Shown here: piece by piece, positions 4,379 through 18,363 of the stretch
Layout of the letters: each line of letters starts with the position of its first letter
How positions within the stretch are numbered: position 1 is the stretch's first letter
Assembly (NCBI GenBank): GCA_020854115.1
Contig: JADZGC010000011.1
Coordinates: 5,057 to 69,056, forward strand
Source: a bacterium
Lineage (GTDB): Bacteria; Patescibacteriota; Saccharimonadia; CAILAD01; GCA-016700035
Length of the DNA: 64,000 bases
Reading direction: 5' to 3'
The notes under the pieces: model-generated
What the model was told of the DNA's origin: nothing
Database searches by the model: none
What the model saw: only the letters and a program-made list of their open reading frames with translations
Position numbers and translations under genes: made by a program

Positions 4379-4454
4379 TGGTGGGCCCGGTTGGGTTCGA
4401 ACCAACGACCAATCGGTTATGAGCCGACTGCTCTAACCCCTGAGCTACGGGCCC
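4379..4454 (-). tRNA. tRNA with anticodon CAT (probably tRNA-Ile2, lysidine type; otherwise elongator Met)
   Basis: Reverse complement folds as a cloverleaf: GGGCCCG acceptor stem, CTCATAA anticodon loop, TTCGAAC T-loop, CCA end. Variable loop and anticodon stem resemble Ile2-type. Confidence 0.8.
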
Positions 4455-8297: not shown

Positions 8298-9035
8298 ATG
8301 GCGCAAGTAAACTCTTCGCAAAGTCAGACAAGCGGTGATTCGCGCTTGGATACGTTGCACGTCACGCTCGATATTGTAGATGAGCAGGTGATCGATGAGC
8401 CGACTGCCTCAGAAAAAATTGCATTCTTTCTGAGTTTTCTACCGCTTGTGGGATACGTTGGAGCGGCGATGGCTGCATTTGCAGTGCGCAATCATCATCG
8501 TGCAGGCACGAAGACACATGGCCTGACCTATGCTGCACTCGCTCTGCAAGTCTTTTATACGCTTCTTATGCTTACAGGTCTGGTGGTGAGTATGCAAATC
8601 CAGCAGTCTAGTCTTGCGCCAACGAAGCCAGCTGAAGCAACTGCACAGAGCTTCATAACTACAGTTCAAGCGAGTAACTTCACTGCGGCAAGGGCGTATT
8701 TTGCAAACCAAGTCAGTAATGCGCCTGAAGTCACATTGCCTATGTATCGGGCAGCCATGACGGGCACACCCTTGCTTGTAGAGAGTCGTATGATCGAGAA
8801 ACCGACTTTTCAAGACCAATCATTCAGTGCGTATACAGACATGCCATTGAGCTATCAGCTTTGGCATATTGGTACGATAGAGACTAATTCTCAGTATCTG
8901 ATAATAATCTTGTCGGAAGTTGCGCGTGATGATTGGCGGATCATCCAGGTGCAGAGTCTCGAGGCACCTGGTGACTCGAGTGCTAAGTCCGCAATCGATC
9001 AGGTGGTTGGTGCATTGCTGGCACCTGCTACGTAG
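8298..9035 (+). CDS. hypothetical membrane protein
   Basis: 245-aa ORF with two hydrophobic helices. No recognisable family. Confidence 0.5.
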   Translation: MAQVNSSQSQTSGDSRLDTLHVTLDIVDEQVIDEPTASEKIAFFLSFLPLVGYVGAAMAAFAVRNHHRAGTKTHGLTYAALALQVFYTLLMLTGLVVSMQIQQSSLAPTKPAEATAQSFITTVQASNFTAARAYFANQVSNAPEVTLPMYRAAMTGTPLLVESRMIEKPTFQDQSFSAYTDMPLSYQLWHIGTIETNSQYLIIILSEVARDDWRIIQVQSLEAPGDSSAKSAIDQVVGALLAPAT

Positions 9036-9058
9036 CTCAAGCGTGATACAATCTAGTC

Positions 9059-9460
9059 GTGCAGCCGAGTATGAAACATCGGATTTTTGATTATACGCGC
9101 TTAGCCTTTTGGGTAGGGCTGATTGCGACTATGTATGTGTGTGTGGCACTGATTGATATAAGTGCACGTAATACTACTCTGCGCGAACGAGCTGATCAGC
9201 TCGAAGAGGATACGGTGAGGCTAGAGACTGAGATCGAGATCTTGCAGGCGCAAATTACATACTTCAAGACAGATGAGTTTCAGGAGCGATTAGTGCGCGA
9301 GAAGCTCGGTTTACAAGCTCCAGGCGAGCAGGTTGTGATTGTTGGTCGAGGCGACAGCGAACTTGGCGCAGAAGCGAATAGGAAGAATGAAACGGCACTT
9401 CTGCCGGAGACATCGCACGTGGATGAATGGATGACATTTTTGTTTGGCGAAGCTGAGTAG
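9059..9460 (+). CDS. septum formation initiator-like protein (FtsB/DivIC/FtsL family)
   Basis: Single TM followed by a coiled coil (RERADQLEEDTVRLETEIEILQAQITYFKTDEFQERLVREKLGL). Start is ambiguous (GTG at 9059 or ATG at 9071). Confidence 0.6.
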   Translation: MQPSMKHRIFDYTRLAFWVGLIATMYVCVALIDISARNTTLRERADQLEEDTVRLETEIEILQAQITYFKTDEFQERLVREKLGLQAPGEQVVIVGRGDSELGAEANRKNETALLPETSHVDEWMTFLFGEAE

Positions 9461-9511
9461 CTTTCGATTTCTTGACCATTTCTCTATAACAGGATAGAAT
9501 ATACGTTGCGC

Positions 9512-9587
9512 CGCGGGGTGGAGCAGTTGGCAGCTCGTCAGGCTCATAACCTGAAGGTCGCTGGTTCGAGTCCAGCCCCCGCTACCA
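9512..9587 (+). tRNA. initiator tRNA-fMet (anticodon CAT)
   Basis: CGCGGGG 5' end with a C1-A72 mismatch. Three consecutive G-C pairs close the CTCATAA anticodon loop. CCA end. Confidence 0.9.
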
Positions 9588-9650
9588 GAAATGTACTTTT
9601 TCGGAAATCGTCGCCCGTATGGGCGGCTTTTTCCGAAAAAGTACATTTCT
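9588..9650. terminator. nested hairpin terminator within a perfect 20-bp inverted repeat
   Basis: GAAATGTACTTTTTCGGAAA ... TTTCCGAAAAAGTACATTTC arms enclose an inner CGCCCGTATGGGCGGC hairpin plus a T-tract. Lies between the tRNA and the convergent high-GC gene. Confidence 0.6.
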
Positions 9651-9739
9651 GGTGGAGCTGTTGAGACTTCTCTCGAACAAGAACCGAACGATCTGATGCG
9701 CAGGGCTGCGCCGAGAGGCACATTGCGCTCACAGCCCGA

Positions 9740-10426
9740 TCAGCACACGCTCACCGCAGGGTCGACGAACGGTGTTCCCACCAGCGATCCGGAGGTCTGC
9801 CCATTGTTGTAAAACGCGTCTGCAGACACGTAGAAGGTGTCGTTCCACGGGCTCGATGCGATTCGATACCACCATGTGTTGCCGTCCTGGACGCGGAACC
9901 CCTCGACCCGACACCTGATCTGCACGGTCGTGTACGCCGGGATGCTGGGCCCCTGTGTCCCGCCGGCGGTGAGATAGTCGGTCCAGGTCGCTGCATCTCC
10001 ACCGGTGGTCTCGGCGAACGTGCCCGGCGGAGACGGTGCGGCACTTGTGGTCGGTGACACCACCGTGGGCGGTGGGTTGGTAGACGCAGGCGGTCCTCCG
10101 GAGTTCGATGTCGTCGGGGATGGTGGCGGTCGCGGTGGGGCGACTGAGGTTGGCTTGGTGGATTGCGTCTCGCCGAGCGAAGTCGACGGCACGGCCTGCG
10201 TCGTTGAGGGACCGGGGGCGCTCGTCGGCCCAGCGACGACTGCTCCCCGAGACGTCGTCGGACGCGAGACCGGAGGTACCGCGCCGGTAGCCCGGTCCCT
10301 CACGTTCTGCTCTCCGCCGTCCGTAAGTACGAACGACAGGCCGGCGACGAGCAGCACGAACGCGACGGCGGCGAACGCAAACGCACCCCTCGGCCTTGAA
10401 TTTGTGACGGCGAACGACTTGAGCAA
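9740..10426 (-). CDS. secreted/membrane-anchored Pro/Thr-rich protein with C-terminal SH3b-like domain (island gene A)
   Basis: N-terminal TM (AFAFAAVAFVLLVAGLSFVL), PT-rich linker, and a C-terminal W/Y-rich domain (TTVQIRCRVEGFRVQDGNTWWYRIASSPWNDTFYVSADAF). GC-rich codons. Confidence 0.65.
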   Translation of the reverse strand: MLKSFAVTNSRPRGAFAFAAVAFVLLVAGLSFVLTDGGEQNVRDRATGAVPPVSRPTTSRGAVVAGPTSAPGPSTTQAVPSTSLGETQSTKPTSVAPPRPPPSPTTSNSGGPPASTNPPPTVVSPTTSAAPSPPGTFAETTGGDAATWTDYLTAGGTQGPSIPAYTTVQIRCRVEGFRVQDGNTWWYRIASSPWNDTFYVSADAFYNNGQTSGSLVGTPFVDPAVSVC

Positions 10427-10457
10427 GCTCTACGCTCCCTTGACACGTTCCGGACGC

Positions 10458-10799
10458 ATGCGCTCGTTCTACTGGAACCCCGACCCAGGGGAACGGGCAC
10501 TGATCGCGAGCGGCCTCTTCCCTTCGCTTCCGGCCGACGATCTAACCGAGCTCACCAAACACTTTTCCGATCAGCCAATCAGCTTCCTAGCCGATATCGC
10601 GAGCCATCACCTGACCCTTGTGCTGGGCGCTGAGATCGACGCCAACGACTTCCCGACGGTCCTTGCGAATGTGCGTCTCGGAGAGTACGACGACTTTGCC
10701 TCGGGATTGTCACTAGAGCAATTGATCTCAATTGGTGATTCGTATCGCAATTCCTACATCTATCAGAGCTACCTTTCCCTGGAGGGATCCGCATCATGA
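10458..10799 (+). CDS. hypothetical protein (island gene B, 113 aa)
   Basis: ATG at 10458 chosen. The 10005 extension overlaps gene A and looks like a high-GC artefact. Its stop overlaps the gene C start (ATGA). Confidence 0.5.
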   Translation: MRSFYWNPDPGERALIASGLFPSLPADDLTELTKHFSDQPISFLADIASHHLTLVLGAEIDANDFPTVLANVRLGEYDDFASGLSLEQLISIGDSYRNSYIYQSYLSLEGSAS

Positions 10800-11353
10800 C
10801 CGCTACCATGACGTACGCCGTCACTGCGTCCGCGACCACGACTCGCCTGCGTGCTATCGAATACCAGATTCGTTACTCGCTCAAGTCGATGGCTCAGATT
10901 GATAGCGACTACCTCGACCGCATAATTAGGGCCATTCGGATGCAGTTCTGTTCCGAAGTTTGGATCTACGCAGTTGATCCATTGAGCGGCGCCTGTGACC
11001 AGGCGGCACGATTGCGACTCGACTGGGAACGACATGAAGCCCTGAACATGGAAACCCCAACCATCGACCTTCGCGAAGCATACTACGGCAAGGAACTCGC
11101 GCCGACGCTTGAGGCGCTGATTGAGAGCTTCCTTGAAGGGCGTCGGCCCAATCATGAGATCGAGGTCCAACTGGGCGACATCATGCCGAAGTTCCGCAGC
11201 AATAAGGAGCTTCTCGATCGCACTCTCAGCGAACTTGGCTTCCGACTCTGTGACGCGCCGCCTTGGGCAGTAGGCGAAGTCGATTCAGAGGACGCCAAAG
11301 TGCTGCGCCTCGAGGAGATGTCTGGAGCACTGTATTGGGTCAAAGCAGGATGA
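10796..11353 (+). CDS. hypothetical protein (island gene C, 185 aa)
   Basis: Translationally coupled to gene B. Balanced amino-acid composition. No recognisable family. Confidence 0.55.
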   Translation: MTATMTYAVTASATTTRLRAIEYQIRYSLKSMAQIDSDYLDRIIRAIRMQFCSEVWIYAVDPLSGACDQAARLRLDWERHEALNMETPTIDLREAYYGKELAPTLEALIESFLEGRRPNHEIEVQLGDIMPKFRSNKELLDRTLSELGFRLCDAPPWAVGEVDSEDAKVLRLEEMSGALYWVKAG

Positions 11354-11549
11354 CGAGCCTGCTCCCGGGTCAAGCCAGCTGTTCGATTGACATTCTCCGC
11401 GGCTGTGGTACACTATAGAACTATGTTTCGAGGGCGGCTGCGGCGGCATTTGTAATGCGGATCTGCCGGAGCCGCGCTCGATCACGAAATCGAGACCGGA
11501 AGCACATCTGTGTGCTTTCGAGTAGTTCCGCGGCAGAAGGTGACCGGCC

Positions 11550-11768
11550 ATGGCAGGCTCGTCGCAAGCCGAGCAGTCTCGACGGGAGGTCGCAGTCCCC
11601 CTTGAGAGAATGCTCCACCGAGTTCGATCCGGAGAATCACCTCAAATGGAGGTTGAGACTCTCACGAGCGAACTGTGGGATTTGGCCCACCGGGCGTTTG
11701 GCATCAGCCAGTCTCCAGTCGACTCGTTTCGGGATCGGCTGGAGGAGATCGACGCACGACAGGCCTAG
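11550..11768 (+). CDS. small hypothetical protein (island gene D, 72 aa)
   Basis: GAAGGTGA RBS before ATG 11550. Acidic helical protein. Followed by a perfect 12-bp hairpin. Possible TTGACA/TACACT promoter at 11387-11414. Confidence 0.45.
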   Translation: MAGSSQAEQSRREVAVPLERMLHRVRSGESPQMEVETLTSELWDLAHRAFGISQSPVDSFRDRLEEIDARQA

Positions 11769-11775
11769 CAGAGGG

Positions 11776-11804
11776 TCCGACGAGTGCATGACGCACTCGT
11801 CGGA
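11776..11804. terminator. perfect 12-bp stem hairpin between convergent island genes D and E
   Basis: TCCGACGAGTGC-ATGAC-GCACTCGTCGGA. No U-tract, as is common for high-GC terminators. Confidence 0.4.
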
Positions 11805-11895
11805 CTCACACTTCCAATTACGGCAGGGCAGACCCTGGGGAGCAGGACGCCGCCAGGCGATCTCGGCGGGGACGGAATCTTGGCGTCAGTCATTT

Positions 11896-12501
11896 TCAGA
11901 TCAGTCCGCGGCGCTCTAGATCGTGCATCTCCCGAAGCAGTGCGACAACAAGCATGATCGCAACTAGCGCGTTGACCTTGGTGTACTGCGTATCGCAGAC
12001 ATGGTGGAGCGATGCGTGGCGGTTGTAGGCATCGGGCACTGCATCCCCGCGATTCGGCCAGAACGTGCCGAGTACCGGAGGAATACAACTCGTGATGAGG
12101 GCCGCCCGGAACATGTCTGAAGCGACTTCGCCAGGGTCCTGCACGAGAGATTCCGCCGCCTCGCGGAGCGTGTCGTATCCCATGTGCGCCTGGAGGATCG
12201 TGGTGACCAGCGCCGCAGCGAGTGCCTGACCCGAGGCGGTGTGGCCGGCTCGAATCGCTCCAGCCGCATCGGACGCGAATGGCACGAGTGGCGAGAAGCC
12301 GCCGGTGACCTCGCCAAGCAACCGATCGCAGGCATCGAGCAAGGGGAGCTCGGCAAGCGCATCGAGCGCCGTATCGCGGCAATCGATGCAGCCATGGTCA
12401 GTCTGCCGGAGTCGCTCCGCCCGGAGGACGGCTGGGACTACCAGGCGCTTGTGAGCGTCAACGGGGTCTCGGTCGGAGATGGTGACTCGTGGGTCAACCA
12501 C
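11896..12501 (-). CDS. hypothetical protein (island gene E; 5' extent uncertain)
   Basis: The minus ORF runs 11896..12816, but its upstream part is antisense to ORF F and Arg/Ala/Val-rich. The protein-like part covers at least 11896-12393. Possible starts are ATG 12183 and GTG 12501. No family recognised. Confidence 0.35.
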   Translation of the reverse strand: MVDPRVTISDRDPVDAHKRLVVPAVLRAERLRQTDHGCIDCRDTALDALAELPLLDACDRLLGEVTGGFSPLVPFASDAAGAIRAGHTASGQALAAALVTTILQAHMGYDTLREAAESLVQDPGEVASDMFRAALITSCIPPVLGTFWPNRGDAVPDAYNRHASLHHVCDTQYTKVNALVAIMLVVALLREMHDLERRGLI

Positions 12502-12756
12502 GCCGAACCGTTCGACGAACACTGCGAAGGCCGCGATGCTCAAGTTGTGTACGCCGTTCCGGCTGCCGACGGCGAACTGGTGGCCCTCGCTTACTACAAG
12601 TGGGGCTACTGGAACGTCAACCTCCGCTGGCGCGAGACGACCGACAGCTCGCCTGTCGCGACTCACGCCTCGGAGGAGTCGGCATCCGCCACCGAGCCTG
12701 TTGACATGGAGGACGCCTTGCAACGCCTCCAGGACAGATTCGGTCCGAACCGGTAA
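12394..12756 (+). CDS. hypothetical protein (island gene F, 120 aa)
   Basis: ATG 12394. Hand count on 12481-12660 gives GC3 about 78%, GC1 about 68%, GC2 about 45%, favouring this frame over the antisense ORF. Acidic C-terminus. The stop coincides with the GC drop. Confidence 0.4.
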   Translation: MVSLPESLRPEDGWDYQALVSVNGVSVGDGDSWVNHAEPFDEHCEGRDAQVVYAVPAADGELVALAYYKWGYWNVNLRWRETTDSSPVATHASEESASATEPVDMEDALQRLQDRFGPNR

Positions 12757-12964
12757 ACGACTATAACTATCCTTGAACCCAACAAGGTAAAAAATCTTGC
12801 AGGTAACTGCAAGCATGAAGCCTCAAGGTTTTGTGAGGGGAAGCTCATCGCGGTAGGCGAGCTAAAGTGTACGTTCCAATGCAAGGTGGAGTATGGCACA
12901 GAACCGTCCGGTTTCTCTCGAACCCGGGTCTGATCTGAAGAGATAAGACGAAGTTGAGAGATAC

Positions 12965-13033
12965 GCCCCAACCAACGCTTGCCGTCCAGGCAAGCTCCGA
13001 AAGGAGTAAAGATTGGTTGGGGCGTTTTTCTTT
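12965..13033 (+). terminator. structured element / terminator: 11-bp outer stem enclosing two hairpins, then a U-tract
   Basis: Outer stem GCCCCAACCAA...TTGGTTGGGGC. It encloses GCTTGCC-GTCCA-GGCAAGC and CTCC-GAAA-GGAG (GNRA tetraloop), followed by GTTTTTCTTT. Confidence 0.45.
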
Positions 13034-13616
13034 GTCTATCCTTGAGACCCTTTGCGCAAAGTGTGTGTCTCTTTTGCGATTGAGATGTGGTCGGCTTAGC
13101 TGCATCTATCGGATTGCGCGCTCGTGCAGATGACTTTGTCGATCAGGCATTTGATAATACTCTTGCTGGGCACATCGTAAACAGTATGAGTAATATTGAG
13201 GATGTAAATACTGGAGATGCTAACACCGATGGGGTGCCCGACAAGAATCAATCATCGGTCATGTCATTCTTGTTGCAGACACCTGGAACAGGTACTCGCA
13301 TGACGTTTGTTAGCTCCGGTTGCACCGATACGGCATGAGCAGATGCGATTGACGCACACATATTTTGATTATCTCCGTCACAAACGACCACTTGTCGCCG
13401 AAAACCCACGTATACATTACACATTTTGACATCACCTCAGGGTCGTAACCTTCCCAATCTTGCGCTACAAGATCTCATTTGTGATCGAGCGACAAGACAC
13501 GCGATAGGGCTAGATTTGTATCGTCCAATCTGGTATAACTACATAACGTGCAAGAGGGGAAATAGTGCTTCTCCTTTAGTCGTGCCGACAAGTACTTTAC
13601 ACTAAGATAGTCGTAT

Positions 13617-13693
13617 GGCTGCGTAGCTCAGTTGGTTAGAGCAATGGACTCATAAGCCAGAGGTCGGTGGTTCAAATCCACCCGCAGCCACCA
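13617..13693 (+). tRNA. tRNA-Met (anticodon CAT), elongator-type
   Basis: GGCTGCG acceptor stem pairs with CGCAGCC. CTCATAA anticodon loop. GGTGG-TTCAAAT-CCACC T-arm. CCA end. Anticodon stem has two non-WC pairs. Confidence 0.8.
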
Positions 13694-15888: not shown

Positions 15889-15951
15889 CCACTCATTCTA
15901 ATAGAATAAATACACCCTTTAGTGAGGTGTAGTTTGGTATATACTAATAGC

Positions 15952-18363
15952 ATGAGTAAGATAACAAAGCAGGCGCTCATTTTCTTTTGTTTCGTGAATG
16001 CTGTGCTTTTTATCTTTACACACCTCCCGCTCAATAAAGCTCGAGCTGTCGGTACGACACTGACAGTCAGCTCAATCAATGATGGCGACGATGCGAATGC
16101 TGGCGACGGCATCTGTGAGACGTCTACGCCGGGCGAATGCACCTTGCGGGCCGCTATTACTGAGTCAAATGCTAATACGGGCACCGATACGATTGAATTC
16201 AACATTTCGGGCGGCGGCGTGAAAACAATAGGTCTTACAGATGAATTACCCGCAATCACTGAGCAGATAGTGATCGATGGATATACACAGACTGGAGCAA
16301 GTGAGAATACTGCACAGGCGCCTTTGGCGATTAATAGTGTTATTACTATCGCAATTAATGGGAGTACACTTGGCCAGAACAAACTTGGTCTTCGGGTGGG
16401 TGGTGCGAATTCTGTCATTAAGGGCCTTTCGATATCGGGCTTTGATGCAAGTGATGGTCAGCATGGTAATTTACTGATATCGGCAAACAATGTGCAGATC
16501 AAGGGCTGCTACATCGGTGCCGATGCTAGTGGAAATGCATATGGTGCTGGTGATAACAAGGCTGGTATCGGGGTCGTAAATGCTACGGGTGTAGAAATCG
16601 GTGGGATTAATCCAGCCGATAGAAATGTTGTGATCAATAACCACCAAGACTACTCTGCTACAGCGGCAGGCATCATGGTATTACCAGGCTCAGAAGCAAT
16701 AATACAAGGGAATATTGTAGGCCTTGGAAAAGATGGTAGTACTGATTTGGGCGGGTATTATGGAATCATACTTCTCGGAAGTAACAGCCAGATTGGCGGG
16801 TCAAGTAATGGGGAGCAGAATATTGTTTCAGGAGCTCATTCTGCTCAAATCTTGCTCATTAGCTCAGGAACCGTTTCTGGCAATGTGGTGCAAGGAAATT
16901 ATGTAGGTCCTGGAGCAGGGGGTGAAATCAAGCCTAGCATAGATAGTGGCGCAGGCATTGCCTTGGTTGGGGCTGGTGGATCACTAGTCGATAATCTAAT
17001 TGGTGGAGACAACCAAGGTGAGGGGAATACGATACGAGCCGTAAAGGGGATAGGTATTGCAGTACAGGAGATGAATGATCCGGCTCCAAATAAAAACGCA
17101 ATTCTAGGAAACTCTATTTATGACATTAAGGTTAATGAATACTTTAGCGATTTTACGTCTATCAACCAAGGTATTGATCTGTTTAGGCTAACAAGTGTCA
17201 ATCCATATTCATTCTCGGCCCAAGGGGTTACAGGTAATGACATTAATGACACAGACACAGGGGCTAACGACTACATTAACTCGCCCACGCTTCGCACCGC
17301 TCAGCAGGTTAATAACACAATTACTATCACGCTCGATTTAGATGCTAGTGATAGCCCGTCAAATAGTTATCGTATCGAGTTCTTTGCTAACGATGAGGCA
17401 TCTGTTTTTGGCGCTGGACCGGGACAAGAATTTATTGGTAGCCAAGTCATAAGCCCTGGCAGCAATCAGCCAGTTGTATTGAATGTGTCTGGTAATTATA
17501 GCTTCAAGTCACTATCGGCTACTACGACAGCGATTGATAATACCACGAGCACTGGATTCGGCTCTACATCCGAATTCGCGAGAAATATTTCCATAGGTAG
17601 TGCGGAGGATACTGATGCTGATGGAATTATTAATAGTGTCGAAGATGCTGCACCAAATAGCGGCGACACGAATGACGATTCGATTGCAGATCGCTTGCAG
17701 CCAGCCATAACAGCCTTTAAGTCGGGCGACGACAGCACCTGGCAAACAGTGATGACATCTGGTTGTAGCGAAAATAGCTCCGTTTCTTCACTGGGGCCAA
17801 ACGCCTTTCCTAAGCAAGATGCAAACCATAACTATCCCTTTGGCCTGACTGATTTCACTTTGCGCTGTTCGAAGGGTGATACTGCAAATGTGACAATCTA
17901 TTATTTTACTGATCAGGGTGTTGACTCACTCCATCCACGCAAGCTCTTGACCGGTACTGAAGAGTACGTTGATTTGCCAAATGCTACCTTGCAGCAGGCG
18001 CAACTCGGTGGTCAAAATGTCCTGAAGCTCACATATAGTATCCAGGACGGCAGTGCGTTTGATGATGATGGAGGGCTCAATGGGCTAATTCATGATCCAG
18101 TTGGTCTGGCTACCAATAATGCAAACGCTACCTTGCCAACCGTTGGCGCACCCCACGTCCTCTTGCCGGTCGGCTTAGCGATACTCGTGACCTTGATCTA
18201 TGCCTACTACGACTACATGCGTCACAAGAAACCGCTAGTCGCAGAAAACCCACACATTCACTATACTTTCTGGCATCATCTGCGCGTCGTAACGCTACCA
18301 ATTATGAAATATCGGTTTTCGATCGTGGTAGAACGACGAGACTCGGCGCCGATAGCTAGCTAG
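15952..18363 (+). CDS. large surface protein with right-handed parallel beta-helix repeats and C-terminal TM anchor
   Basis: Signal peptide. Many GxNxVxGN beta-helix repeats. Asp-rich calcium-binding-like segment. Hydrophobic anchor VLLPVGLAILVTLIY near the C-terminus. ATG 15952 preferred. Confidence 0.7.
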   Translation: MSKITKQALIFFCFVNAVLFIFTHLPLNKARAVGTTLTVSSINDGDDANAGDGICETSTPGECTLRAAITESNANTGTDTIEFNISGGGVKTIGLTDELPAITEQIVIDGYTQTGASENTAQAPLAINSVITIAINGSTLGQNKLGLRVGGANSVIKGLSISGFDASDGQHGNLLISANNVQIKGCYIGADASGNAYGAGDNKAGIGVVNATGVEIGGINPADRNVVINNHQDYSATAAGIMVLPGSEAIIQGNIVGLGKDGSTDLGGYYGIILLGSNSQIGGSSNGEQNIVSGAHSAQILLISSGTVSGNVVQGNYVGPGAGGEIKPSIDSGAGIALVGAGGSLVDNLIGGDNQGEGNTIRAVKGIGIAVQEMNDPAPNKNAILGNSIYDIKVNEYFSDFTSINQGIDLFRLTSVNPYSFSAQGVTGNDINDTDTGANDYINSPTLRTAQQVNNTITITLDLDASDSPSNSYRIEFFANDEASVFGAGPGQEFIGSQVISPGSNQPVVLNVSGNYSFKSLSATTTAIDNTTSTGFGSTSEFARNISIGSAEDTDADGIINSVEDAAPNSGDTNDDSIADRLQPAITAFKSGDDSTWQTVMTSGCSENSSVSSLGPNAFPKQDANHNYPFGLTDFTLRCSKGDTANVTIYYFTDQGVDSLHPRKLLTGTEEYVDLPNATLQQAQLGGQNVLKLTYSIQDGSAFDDDGGLNGLIHDPVGLATNNANATLPTVGAPHVLLPVGLAILVTLIYAYYDYMRHKKPLVAENPHIHYTFWHHLRVVTLPIMKYRFSIVVERRDSAPIAS

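What the first reader, a model, noticed from the sequence alone, without database searches (positions are those of the whole stretch)
10458..11353. Translationally coupled two-gene module (113 aa + 185 aa) of unknown function inside the island
The two ORFs share an ATGA stop/start overlap at 10,796-10,799. That is the classic signature of obligatory co-expression, seen in toxin-antitoxin, immunity and many defence or anti-defence pairs. Neither product shows a motif I recognise (no P-loop, HEPN, HTH, nuclease or NTase signature visible by eye). They are divergent from the secreted SH3b-like gene, with only about 30 bp between start codons. As the core of a foreign island next to a tRNA, this is the best candidate here for an undescribed small system.
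Basis: partly seen in the sequence, partly recalled or inferred. Interest (0 to 1): 0.6.

Follow-up and report, generated by a model that had tools for sequence, protein, structure and literature searches.

The report
Broken remnant of HORMA–AAA+ cassette
The "two-gene module" is the surviving tail of a horizontally acquired three-gene cassette: a Rubisco-activase-like AAA+ ATPase gene that has lost its front half, followed by an intact HORMA-fold switch-protein gene. This copy is probably dead, but it points to a widespread HORMA plus AAA+ cassette that I could not find described.

Summary
The two ORFs and the ATGA overlap at 10,796-10,799 are real. ORF B is not a 113-aa gene. It covers only ATPase residues ~151-280 (sensor 1, Arg-finger region, helical lid). 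That ATG is the invariant Met of the family's "GRM" motif. No Walker A/B region is found upstream in any frame.

ORF C (185 aa) is intact. It has 17 remote homologues. Its AlphaFold2 model (pLDDT 91) matches only HORMA proteins among the top 50 PDB hits: CBASS HORMA, Mad2, Rev7. Its tail has Ser/Thr at every second residue, as in CBASS HORMA tails gripped by Trip13/Pch2.

In all 16 homologous loci examined, across six phyla and often next to plasmid or phage-type genes, the C-like gene directly follows a full-length Rca-like AAA+ gene. A variable first gene precedes it: a PIN or NYN RNase, or a small helical protein.

The window copy lacks the first gene and the ATPase core, so it is most likely an inactive relic inside a GC-rich island after tRNA-fMet. 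The intact cassette has no CD-NTase and no match above a curated cut-off in Pfam, PADLOC or NCBIfam. I rate it a new variant of HORMA/AAA+ switch systems.

The parts
10404..10799 (+). 5'-truncated remnant of a Rubisco-activase-like AAA+ ATPase gene. It corresponds to ATPase residues ~151-280: sensor-1 'TAN', Arg-finger region 'PLTRSGRM', helical lid.
   Evidence: tblastn of three full-length ATPases hits only 10,401-10,778 (E 2e-16). A 14-sequence HMM matches positions 152-269 of 280 at 10,404-10,751 (i-E 7e-26), with nothing for positions 1-151 in any frame of 9,000-10,900. phmmer against PDB finds Rubisco activase 3t15 residues 161-226 and 6z1d residues 155-223 (E 1.4e-10). Alignments A3 and A5. 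PGAP aa from 10,404.
10458..10460 (+).
   Evidence: This Met is an invariant column in alignments A3, A4 and A5. Codon position read.
10401..10404 (.). Truncation junction. Similarity to the ATPase family stops here going upstream.
   Evidence: B aligns from its first residue to ATPase residue 148-160 in all 14 homologues.
10781..10786 (+). GGAGGG Shine-Dalgarno-like sequence serving the start of C.
   Evidence: Read. It lies 10 nt upstream of ATG 10,796. A similar GGAGGA precedes the ATGA junction in L096.
10796..10799 (+). ATGA stop/start overlap between the ATPase remnant and the HORMA gene.
   Evidence: The same overlap occurs in L096.
10796..11353 (+). Intact gene for a 185-aa HORMA-fold protein (NCBI IT415_01745). 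Its disordered N-terminal tail has Ser/Thr at every second residue.
   Evidence: 17 remote homologues. Alignment A2 has invariant R17, L29, D76 and W77, all present here. AlphaFold2 pLDDT 91.4, pTM 0.85. In the Foldseek PDB search all top 50 hits are HORMA proteins, best E 2.3e-5. Ser/Thr periodicity 6/7 against 1/7.
9740..10426 (-). Opposite-strand 228-aa ORF: membrane anchor, Pro/Thr-rich linker and a C-terminal domain. Its first 8 codons are antisense to the ATPase remnant. Context, not part of the cassette.
   Evidence: Residues 147-213 are 43% identical to hypothetical proteins on Streptomyces plasmids (E 2e-7). Not called by PGAP. Start context.
9592..13000 (.). GC-rich foreign island carrying the remnant. 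The left edge is exact; the right edge is approximate (12,800-13,090).
   Evidence: Composition. Synteny with related genomes L097-L099 ends at 9,591 and resumes at 13,361. The island is identical in 10 independent assemblies.
9512..9587 (+). tRNA-Met (CAT), initiator-like by eye (C1/A72 mismatch), directly bordering the island.

Best explanation
Positions 10,404-11,353 are the 3' two-thirds of a horizontally acquired three-gene cassette. The cassette order is a variable first gene, then a Rubisco-activase-like AAA+ ATPase, then a HORMA-fold protein.

How the intact cassette most likely works (inference by analogy and from conserved features): the HORMA protein acts as a peptide-binding conformational switch. 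The AAA+ hexamer grips its disordered N-terminal tail, which has Ser/Thr at every second residue, and unfolds it to reset the switch. The pair thereby controls the product of the first gene. That product is a PIN or NYN ribonuclease in two variants and a small helical protein with a hydrophobic N-terminus in most others.

What is shown for the window copy: a rearrangement removed the first gene and the ATPase core (Walker A, Walker B, pore loops). It left only ATPase residues ~151-280, joined head-to-head to an unrelated Actinobacteria-like gene. The HORMA gene with its ribosome-binding site is intact.

What is inferred for the window copy: with no ATPase, no partner and no recognisable promoter, it is a non-functional relic. 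At most it makes an orphan HORMA protein.
For: B is a fragment:
- Searches show similarity only to the C-terminal ~130 residues of 14 full-length ATPases and of solved Rubisco activases.
- The similarity starts upstream of the supposed ATG.
- No N-terminal half is found in any frame.

The intact ATPases are Rca-type:
- Pfam PF00004 plus PF21228.
- PDB 6z1d, 4w5w and 3t15 at E ~1e-68 over the full length.

C is a HORMA-fold protein:
- High-confidence model.
- All top 50 PDB matches are HORMA proteins.
- The model has a disordered N-terminus and a C-terminal beta-hairpin, as described for closed bacterial HORMA.

The tail:
- Ser/Thr occupy 75% of alternate positions against 18% in the other register, across 28 family members.
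- Ye et al. report the same periodic Ser/Thr pattern for CBASS HORMA N-termini held by Pch2/Trip13 pore loops (bioRxiv 10.1101/694695).

The cassette:
- The C-like gene lies directly after the ATPase in L011-L018, L027, L029-L035, L056 and L096.
- The small helical first gene abuts the ATPase in 11 loci.
- The first gene is a PIN protein in L032 and a NYN protein in L096.

Context of the intact loci: relaxase, ParB, Replic_Relax, CHAP lysin, P63C and toxin-antitoxin genes nearby.

Window copy:
- No promoter-like site on the + strand between 9,501 and 10,898.
- The island is a patchwork bordered by another gene remnant.
Against: - C shows no sign of decay. It is full length, keeps all invariant residues and has a good ribosome-binding site, so a retained function cannot be excluded.
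- All 10 recovered copies of the island are 99.96-100% identical, so selection on B or C cannot be measured.
- The HORMA assignment rests on a predicted structure with moderate TM-scores (0.43-0.53). There is no sequence-level match to Pfam HORMA models or to PDB sequences.
- The role of the first-gene products, and any role of the cassette in defence, are inferred, not tested.
- The promoter scan covers only sigma-70-type sites, and the host lineage is unknown.
Confidence: 0.8

Rival explanations
1. One reading: B (113 aa) and C (185 aa) form a complete, co-expressed two-gene system such as toxin-antitoxin, immunity or anti-defence.
For: ATGA overlap and a good ribosome-binding site for C. 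Coding-like codon composition in both ORFs. No hit for either protein at or above a curated cut-off, or with a significant E-value, in the family libraries.
Against: B is homologous over its whole length, and 18 codons further upstream, to the C-terminal part of ~280-aa ATPases. Its ATG is an internal conserved Met. No locus with a short B-like gene was found; all 16 have a full-length or contig-cut ATPase. No promoter-like site lies upstream.
Confidence: 0.05
2. The orphan HORMA protein C, with or without the lid fragment, is still expressed and does something in its new host. For example it could bind a host or phage peptide, or act as a decoy.
For: C is intact with all family-invariant residues and a Shine-Dalgarno sequence. 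The island is fixed and identical in at least 10 independent samples.
Against: Sequence identity among samples shows recent common origin, not selection. No partner gene, remodeller or promoter is detected. Every HORMA-family locus examined has the ATPase.
Confidence: 0.12
3. The + strand ORF of 259/264 aa (10,005/10,020-10,799), as called by some gene finders, is a real full-length protein: a new N-terminal domain fused to the ATPase lid.
For: The ORF is open over 795 nt and is called in several assemblies.
Against: Its first ~133 residues are Gly/Val/Asp-rich low complexity, mirroring the Pro/Thr-rich linker of the opposite-strand gene. They have no similarity to ATPase positions 1-151. The opposite-strand ORF carries a C-terminal domain with Streptomyces homologues. 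PGAP starts the gene at 10,404. Long shadow ORFs are expected at 68% GC.
Confidence: 0.03
4. Assembly artefact: a chimeric contig joins unrelated DNA at about 10,400.
For: There is an abrupt end of homology at 10,401-10,404 and a change in GC content around it.
Against: The same sequence across the junction appears in 10 contigs from independent ENA and Logan assemblies of different samples.
Confidence: 0.01

Closest known systems
CBASS type III HORMA plus Trip13/Pch2 module (Cap7/Cap8 with Cap6), e.g. E. coli MS115-1 and P. aeruginosa ATCC 27853
   Same: It pairs a small HORMA-fold protein with an adjacent AAA+ ATPase gene in one operon. The HORMA N-terminal tail is disordered with Ser/Thr at every second residue. 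The operon carries a nuclease-type or other effector gene and is often on mobile elements. These CBASS proteins are the best structural matches of C (6p8r, 6p8v, 6u7b).
   Different: No CD-NTase or other nucleotide cyclase was annotated in the four loci that carry precomputed Pfam listings. The ATPase is of the Rubisco-activase type, not Trip13/Pch2. The gene order is ATPase then HORMA. There is no sequence match to Pfam bacterial HORMA models or PADLOC CBASS models. The first gene is a PIN/NYN RNase or a small helical protein.
Eukaryotic HORMA proteins (Mad2, Rev7, Hop1/HTP) remodelled by TRIP13
   Same: The fold of C is the same (4aez, 1go4, 3gmh, 6kto, 4tzs among the top hits). The logic is the same: a metamorphic switch reset by an AAA+ unfoldase acting on the N-terminus.
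   Different: Sequence identity is only 6-15%. The genes form a bacterial operon, the AAA+ clade is different, and no p31comet-like adaptor is evident.
Green-type and cyanobacterial Rubisco activase (Rca; PDB 3t15, 4w5w, 6z1d)
   Same: The intact cassette ATPases match Rca over the full AAA+ module (E 1e-69) and carry the Rca-specific helical lid PF21228. The window fragment B matches Rca residues ~155-226, including 'TGNDFSTLYAPLIRDGRMEKFYW'.
   Different: No Rubisco gene was annotated in the four loci with precomputed Pfam listings. The cassette occurs in non-photosynthetic Actinomycetota, Acidobacteriota, Gemmatimonadota, Bacteroidota and Firmicutes. It is always coupled to a HORMA gene. 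The window copy lacks the whole nucleotide-binding core.
Type II toxin-antitoxin pairs
   Same: Two small overlapping ORFs on a foreign island.
   Different: Neither product resembles a known toxin or antitoxin. One ORF is a gene fragment, and the conserved unit has three genes.

Membership tests
HORMA domain superfamily (protein C) | HORMA fold: helices packed on a beta-sheet with a mobile C-terminal 'safety belt' | tested here: met
   The AlphaFold2 model has pLDDT 91.4. All 50 best PDB matches are HORMA proteins, with E 2.3e-5 to 2.8e-3 and TM 0.40-0.53. The model ends in a beta-hairpin (162-168, 175-182), like the beta8'-8'' hairpin of closed HORMA described.
HORMA domain superfamily (protein C) | Sequence match to curated HORMA models (Pfam HORMA and bacterial HORMA families) | tested here: not met
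   No Pfam hit at E<=1 to any HORMA model for C or for any of 17 family members. No PDB sequence match at E<=10 with the family profile.
HORMA domain superfamily (protein C) | Disordered N-terminal tail used as a handle by the partner AAA+ ATPase (Ser/Thr at alternate positions in bacterial 1-HORMA operons) | tested here: met
   pLDDT is below 50 for residues 4-11. Ser/Thr occupy 6/7 alternate positions in C, and 75% against 18% family-wide. The pattern is as described by Ye et al.. Engagement by the ATPase itself was not tested.
HORMA domain superfamily (protein C) | [quoted passage not shown] | not testable with these tools
   This needs binding assays or structures of complexes.
CBASS type III | CD-NTase (cGAS/DncV-like cyclase) gene in the operon | tested here: not met
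   No nucleotidyltransferase family appears among the genes of L011, L012, L013 and L096. The gene abutting the ATPase is the small helical protein, a PIN protein or a NYN protein. No PADLOC CBASS model is hit.
CBASS type III | Trip13/Pch2-type AAA+ ATPase | tested here: not met
   The ATPase carries the Rubisco-activase lid PF21228. Its best PDB matches are Rca at E 1e-69. No Trip13 appears at E<=1e-5.
Rubisco activase-type AAA+ (gene B) | AAA+ core with Walker A and Walker B | tested here: not met
   In the window only residues ~151-280 remain. HMM positions 1-151 are absent in all frames. Intact cassette homologues do have GxGKT and NDID.
Rubisco activase-type AAA+ (gene B) | Rca-type sensor/Arg-finger segment and helical lid | tested here: met
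   B matches 3t15 residues 161-226 and 6z1d residues 155-223 (E 1.4e-10 and 4e-9). Homologues hit PF21228 above the cut-off. B itself falls below Pfam thresholds.
Rubisco activase-type AAA+ (gene B) | Functional link to Rubisco (neighbouring rbc genes, photosynthetic or autotrophic host) | tested here: not met
   No Rubisco family appears among the annotated neighbours of the four loci with Pfam listings. Hosts include Streptomyces, Micromonospora and Ruminococcus. No systematic search for rbc genes was made.
Type II toxin-antitoxin | Recognisable toxin or antitoxin domain and a conserved two-gene unit | tested here: not met
   No toxin or antitoxin family, and nothing above a curated cut-off, in Pfam, NCBIfam, PADLOC or PHROGs. 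The conserved unit has three genes.

The most novel reading that the evidence does not exclude
The intact cassette (PIN/NYN RNase or small helical protein, then Rubisco-activase-clade AAA+, then HORMA) is a previously undescribed, CD-NTase-independent HORMA-based conflict or immune system. It is spread on mobile elements across at least six bacterial phyla. In it, a HORMA switch directly licenses an effector and an Rca-type AAA+ takes the role that Trip13 plays elsewhere. If so, HORMA/AAA+ switching arose or was re-wired more than once. It would also mean the Rubisco activase clade has a non-photosynthetic, protein-remodelling branch.
Probability: 0.4. Interest if true: 0.75.

Novelty: new variant of a known kind. 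Interest (0 to 1): 0.55.

Why it matters
For this genome the result is mundane. The flagged pair is a decayed piece of foreign DNA, and gene callers disagree about it because one ORF is a fragment.

The value lies in what the fragment revealed.
- It exposes a conserved operon that couples a HORMA-fold protein to a Rubisco-activase-type AAA+ ATPase and a variable, often ribonuclease, first gene.
- The operon is found in Cyanobacteria, Actinomycetota, Acidobacteriota, Gemmatimonadota, Bacteroidota and Firmicutes.
- As far as I could find, bacterial HORMA proteins have only been described as regulators of CD-NTases in CBASS, always with Trip13/Pch2.
- A second, independent HORMA/AAA+ pairing would broaden the known uses of this switch in bacteria.
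- It would offer a simple system for studying how a HORMA protein controls a nuclease.
- It would raise the question of what Rubisco-activase relatives do in non-photosynthetic bacteria.

Tried and rejected
Searches that gave no match at or above a curated cut-off (only weak sub-threshold hits, or none):
- Pfam, PADLOC, NCBIfam and PHROGs on B and C.
- The word-index protein search found only C itself and nothing for B. B-containing proteins are nevertheless in the collection.
- tblastn of C against plasmids and phages.
- The GTDB scan with C alone.
- The PDB sequence search with the C-family profile.
- Foldseek against viral structures.

- The C-family alignment was too divergent for locus scans, so the census was seeded with the ATPase. 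That biases it towards ATPase-containing loci. The six loci found through C are the unbiased set.
- The single-sequence AlphaFold2 model of the neighbour's C-terminal domain was unusable (pLDDT 36), so 'SH3b-like' stays untested.

Other dead ends:
- There are no direct repeats flanking the island, and the three tRNA-CAT genes are not repeats of each other.
- The rest of the island shares nothing with cassette-bearing loci.
- The host lineage could not be resolved beyond 'bacterium'.
- Eight literature searches found nothing on a HORMA protein paired with a Rubisco-activase-like ATPase.

Rejected explanations: toxin-antitoxin pair, a real 259/264-aa fusion protein, and assembly chimera (see rivals).

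Two N-termini (L017, L029) were extracted out of frame by my own coordinates and should be ignored.

Full report
**1. The observation**

ORF listing and direct reading confirm a + strand frame ending at TGA 10,797-10,799. They also confirm a 185-aa ORF at 10,796-11,353 that shares ATGA with it. GGAGGG lies at 10,781-10,786, 10 nt before the start of C.

Both ORFs have the GC pattern by codon position expected of coding DNA.

The region sits in a stretch of 55-68% GC within a ~48% GC genome. The stretch begins directly after a tRNA-Met(CAT) at 9,512-9,587. By eye this tRNA has the C1/A72 mismatch of an initiator.

The same DNA, 99.96-100% identical, occurs in 10 contigs from independent assemblies, so it is not a chimera.

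**2. ORF B is a gene fragment**

B and C gave no hit at or above a curated cut-off in Pfam, PADLOC, NCBIfam or PHROGs, only one weak sub-threshold match.

The break came from C. An exhaustive HMMER search found 17 remote homologues of 174-201 aa, at 26-33% identity. Their alignment has invariant R17, L29, D76 and W77 (A2).

Looking up where these homologues are encoded showed a consistent neighbour. The gene directly upstream is a 278-288-aa AAA+ ATPase with Pfam AAA (PF00004) and the Rubisco-activase helical lid (PF21228).

- Window: VTANDLSKLYAPLTRSGRMRSFYWNPDPGERALIASGLFP
- ATPases: LTGNDFTKLYEPLVRAGRMxAFEWKPTxEEKAQIISxIFP

Further evidence:
- tblastn of the full-length ATPases hits only 10,401-10,778, through ATPase residues 151-287 (E 2e-16).
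- A 14-sequence HMM matches positions 152-269 of 280 (i-E 7e-26). Nothing matches positions 1-151 in any of six frames across 9,000-10,900.
- B aligns from its first residue to residue 148-160 of all 14 homologues.
- Against solved structures, B hits only Rubisco activase: 3t15 residues 161-226, 6z1d residues 155-223, and 4w5w (E 1.4e-10 to 2.8e-8).
- The intact ATPases match Rubisco activase end to end at about E 1e-68.

B therefore retains sensor 1, the Arg-finger region and the lid. It lacks Walker A, Walker B and the pore loops.

NCBI's annotation of this MAG calls a 131-aa protein from GTG 10,404 (IT415_01740). Other callers fuse the fragment to an upstream shadow ORF, giving 259/264 aa.

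**3. ORF C is a HORMA-fold protein**

With alignment A2, AlphaFold2 gave a confident model: pLDDT 91.4, pTM 0.85. The N-terminus is disordered (residues 4-11) and the model ends in a C-terminal beta-hairpin.

In the Foldseek PDB search every one of the 50 best matches is a HORMA protein:
- bacterial CBASS HORMA2 (6p8r, E 2.3e-5)
- E. coli MS115-1 HORMA (6p8v, 6u7b)
- Mad2, Rev7 and HTP-1/2

TM-scores are moderate (0.40-0.53). There is no sequence-level match to HORMA models. The assignment is therefore at fold level.

An independent feature supports it. The tail before the invariant Arg has Ser/Thr at alternate positions. The window sequence is M-T-A-T-M-T-Y-A-V-T-A-S-A-T-T-T-R, scoring 6/7 against 1/7. 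Across 28 family members the figures are 75% against 18%.

Ye et al. describe the same two-residue Ser/Thr periodicity in CBASS HORMA N-termini. They show it is what the Pch2/Trip13 pore loops hold (bioRxiv 10.1101/694695).

**4. The conserved unit**

- All six loci found through C have the ATPase directly upstream, two of them cut by contig ends.
- A GTDB scan seeded with the ATPase found 12 more loci with a C-family gene directly downstream.
- These come from Cyanobacteria, Acidobacteriota, Gemmatimonadota, Actinomycetota (Streptomyces, Micromonospora, Thermoactinospora), Bacteroidota and Firmicutes.
- The ATPase-to-HORMA junction is an overlap or a short spacer of up to about 60 nt. It is ATGA in L096, whose C homologue P0002 is the closest relative of C.
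- A third gene abuts the ATPase start. In 11 loci it encodes a ~160-255-aa helical protein with a conserved hydrophobic N-terminal helix and a basic C-terminus.
- In Fischerella L032 the third gene is a PIN protein.
- In L096 it is a 441-aa NYN RNase-domain protein.
- No CD-NTase is annotated in the four loci with Pfam listings.
- Neighbours include relaxase, ParB, Replic_Relax, CHAP lysin, P63C, an HTH repressor and toxin-antitoxin genes.
- Nine Anaerolineales/Chloroflexota loci carry a related 302-326-aa ATPase alone, so the HORMA link holds for one clade only.
- None of the three proteins has a curated family in PADLOC or NCBIfam.
- Eight full-text searches found no description of such a cassette.

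**5. What happened in the window**

Similarity to cassette loci covers 10,404-11,326 only.

Upstream of 10,404 lies an opposite-strand ORF (9,740-10,426). It has a membrane anchor, a Pro/Thr-rich linker and a C-terminal domain 43% identical to Streptomyces plasmid proteins. Its first eight codons and its SD-like GGGAG are simply the antisense of the conserved 'KLYAPL' codons of the ATPase.

Two 5'-truncated genes therefore appear to be joined head to head. No sigma-70-like promoter is predicted on the + strand between the tRNA promoter and a site inside C.

In related genomes (L097-L099) synteny ends at 9,591 and resumes at 13,361. An intact 819-aa surface-protein gene lies between, and the window keeps only scraps of it at 13,087-13,550. 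The island is thus a patch of foreign, partly degraded DNA at a variable site next to tRNA-fMet.

**6. Mechanism**

Shown:
- the identities of the two reading frames
- the truncation
- the conserved three-gene synteny
- the periodic Ser/Thr tail

Inferred by analogy with CBASS type III and Mad2/TRIP13:
- In intact cassettes the HORMA protein is a peptide-binding switch that controls the first-gene product.
- The Rca-type AAA+ hexamer resets it by pulling on the N-terminal tail.
- From general knowledge, not checked here: Rubisco activases of this clade also act by threading a terminal tail of their substrate through the pore.

The window copy has neither the motor nor the partner. The most likely state is inactivity, with a minority chance that the orphan HORMA protein is made and does something.

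**7. Verdict**

The overlap and C are real, but B is mis-modelled.

This is a coupled pair from an unannotated conflict-type family, but here it is a broken remnant of a three-gene cassette, not a small two-gene system.

Novelty applies to the cassette family: a new variant of HORMA/AAA+ switch systems. It differs from CBASS type III in lacking a CD-NTase and in using a different AAA+ clade.

Interest is moderate, 0.55. The local feature is ordinary gene decay. The family it reveals would interest people working on HORMA signalling, phage defence and Rubisco activase evolution.

Noticed in passing
window 9,592-13,550; L097 14,211-16,806: The site after tRNA-fMet is variable. Related genomes carry an intact 819-aa surface-protein gene there, a paralogue by eye of the window's 813-aa gene at 15,922-18,363. 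The window has the GC-rich island plus N- and C-terminal scraps of that gene at 13,087-13,550.
   Followed up: partly
window 9,740-10,426 (-) against 10,005-10,799 (+): Gene callers disagree here. PGAP calls nothing on the - strand, and Prodigal-type callers call a 259/264-aa + strand ORF. The - strand ORF has a C-terminal domain with Streptomyces plasmid homologues. The 'SH3b-like' label could not be tested because the AlphaFold2 model had pLDDT 36.
   Followed up: partly
window 11,896-12,816: A second annotation conflict: 306 aa on the - strand, against PGAP's 82 aa (-) plus 190 aa (+). The - strand C-terminus contains 'NRHASLHH', an Rx4H motif that looks HEPN-like by eye. No family hit for the - strand ORF, and only a weak PHROG tail-protein match (E 0.019) for the 190-aa ORF. 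No plasmid match for the 190-aa ORF.
   Followed up: no
window 11,387-11,414: A strong promoter-like site (TTGACA, 16 nt, TG-TACACT) lies just downstream of the stop of C. It faces a 72/154-aa ORF of unknown function.
   Followed up: no
window 9,584-9,653: A 33-nt inverted repeat (91% complementary) with a terminator-like core lies immediately after tRNA-fMet, at the left edge of the island.
   Followed up: no
L019-L028 (Anaerolineales/Chloroflexota MAGs): Solitary 302-326-aa Rubisco-activase-like AAA+ genes, 49-54% identical to the cassette ATPases, in apparently non-photosynthetic bacteria. They have no HORMA gene and no first-gene partner, and their function is unknown.
   Followed up: partly
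L032 4,312-4,887; L096 3,406-4,731: The first gene of the cassette is a PIN-domain protein in Fischerella muscicola and a NYN (Zc3h12a-like) RNase-domain protein in a forest-soil contig. This suggests interchangeable ribonuclease effectors.
   Followed up: partly
window 9,533-9,582: Seven of the ten other assemblies of this organism begin their contig inside tRNA-fMet. This hints at population heterogeneity, or an assembly-graph branch, at the island's left edge.
   Followed up: no
window 4,379-4,454 (-), 9,512-9,587, 13,617-13,693: Three different tRNA genes with anticodon CAT lie within 10 kb. They are not repeats of one another (81% mean column identity).
   Followed up: yes
tool behaviour: The word-index protein search with the 113-aa query returned nothing, although 131-, 259- and 264-aa proteins containing it are in the same collection. 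Negative results from that tool for partial queries are therefore weak.
   Followed up: yes
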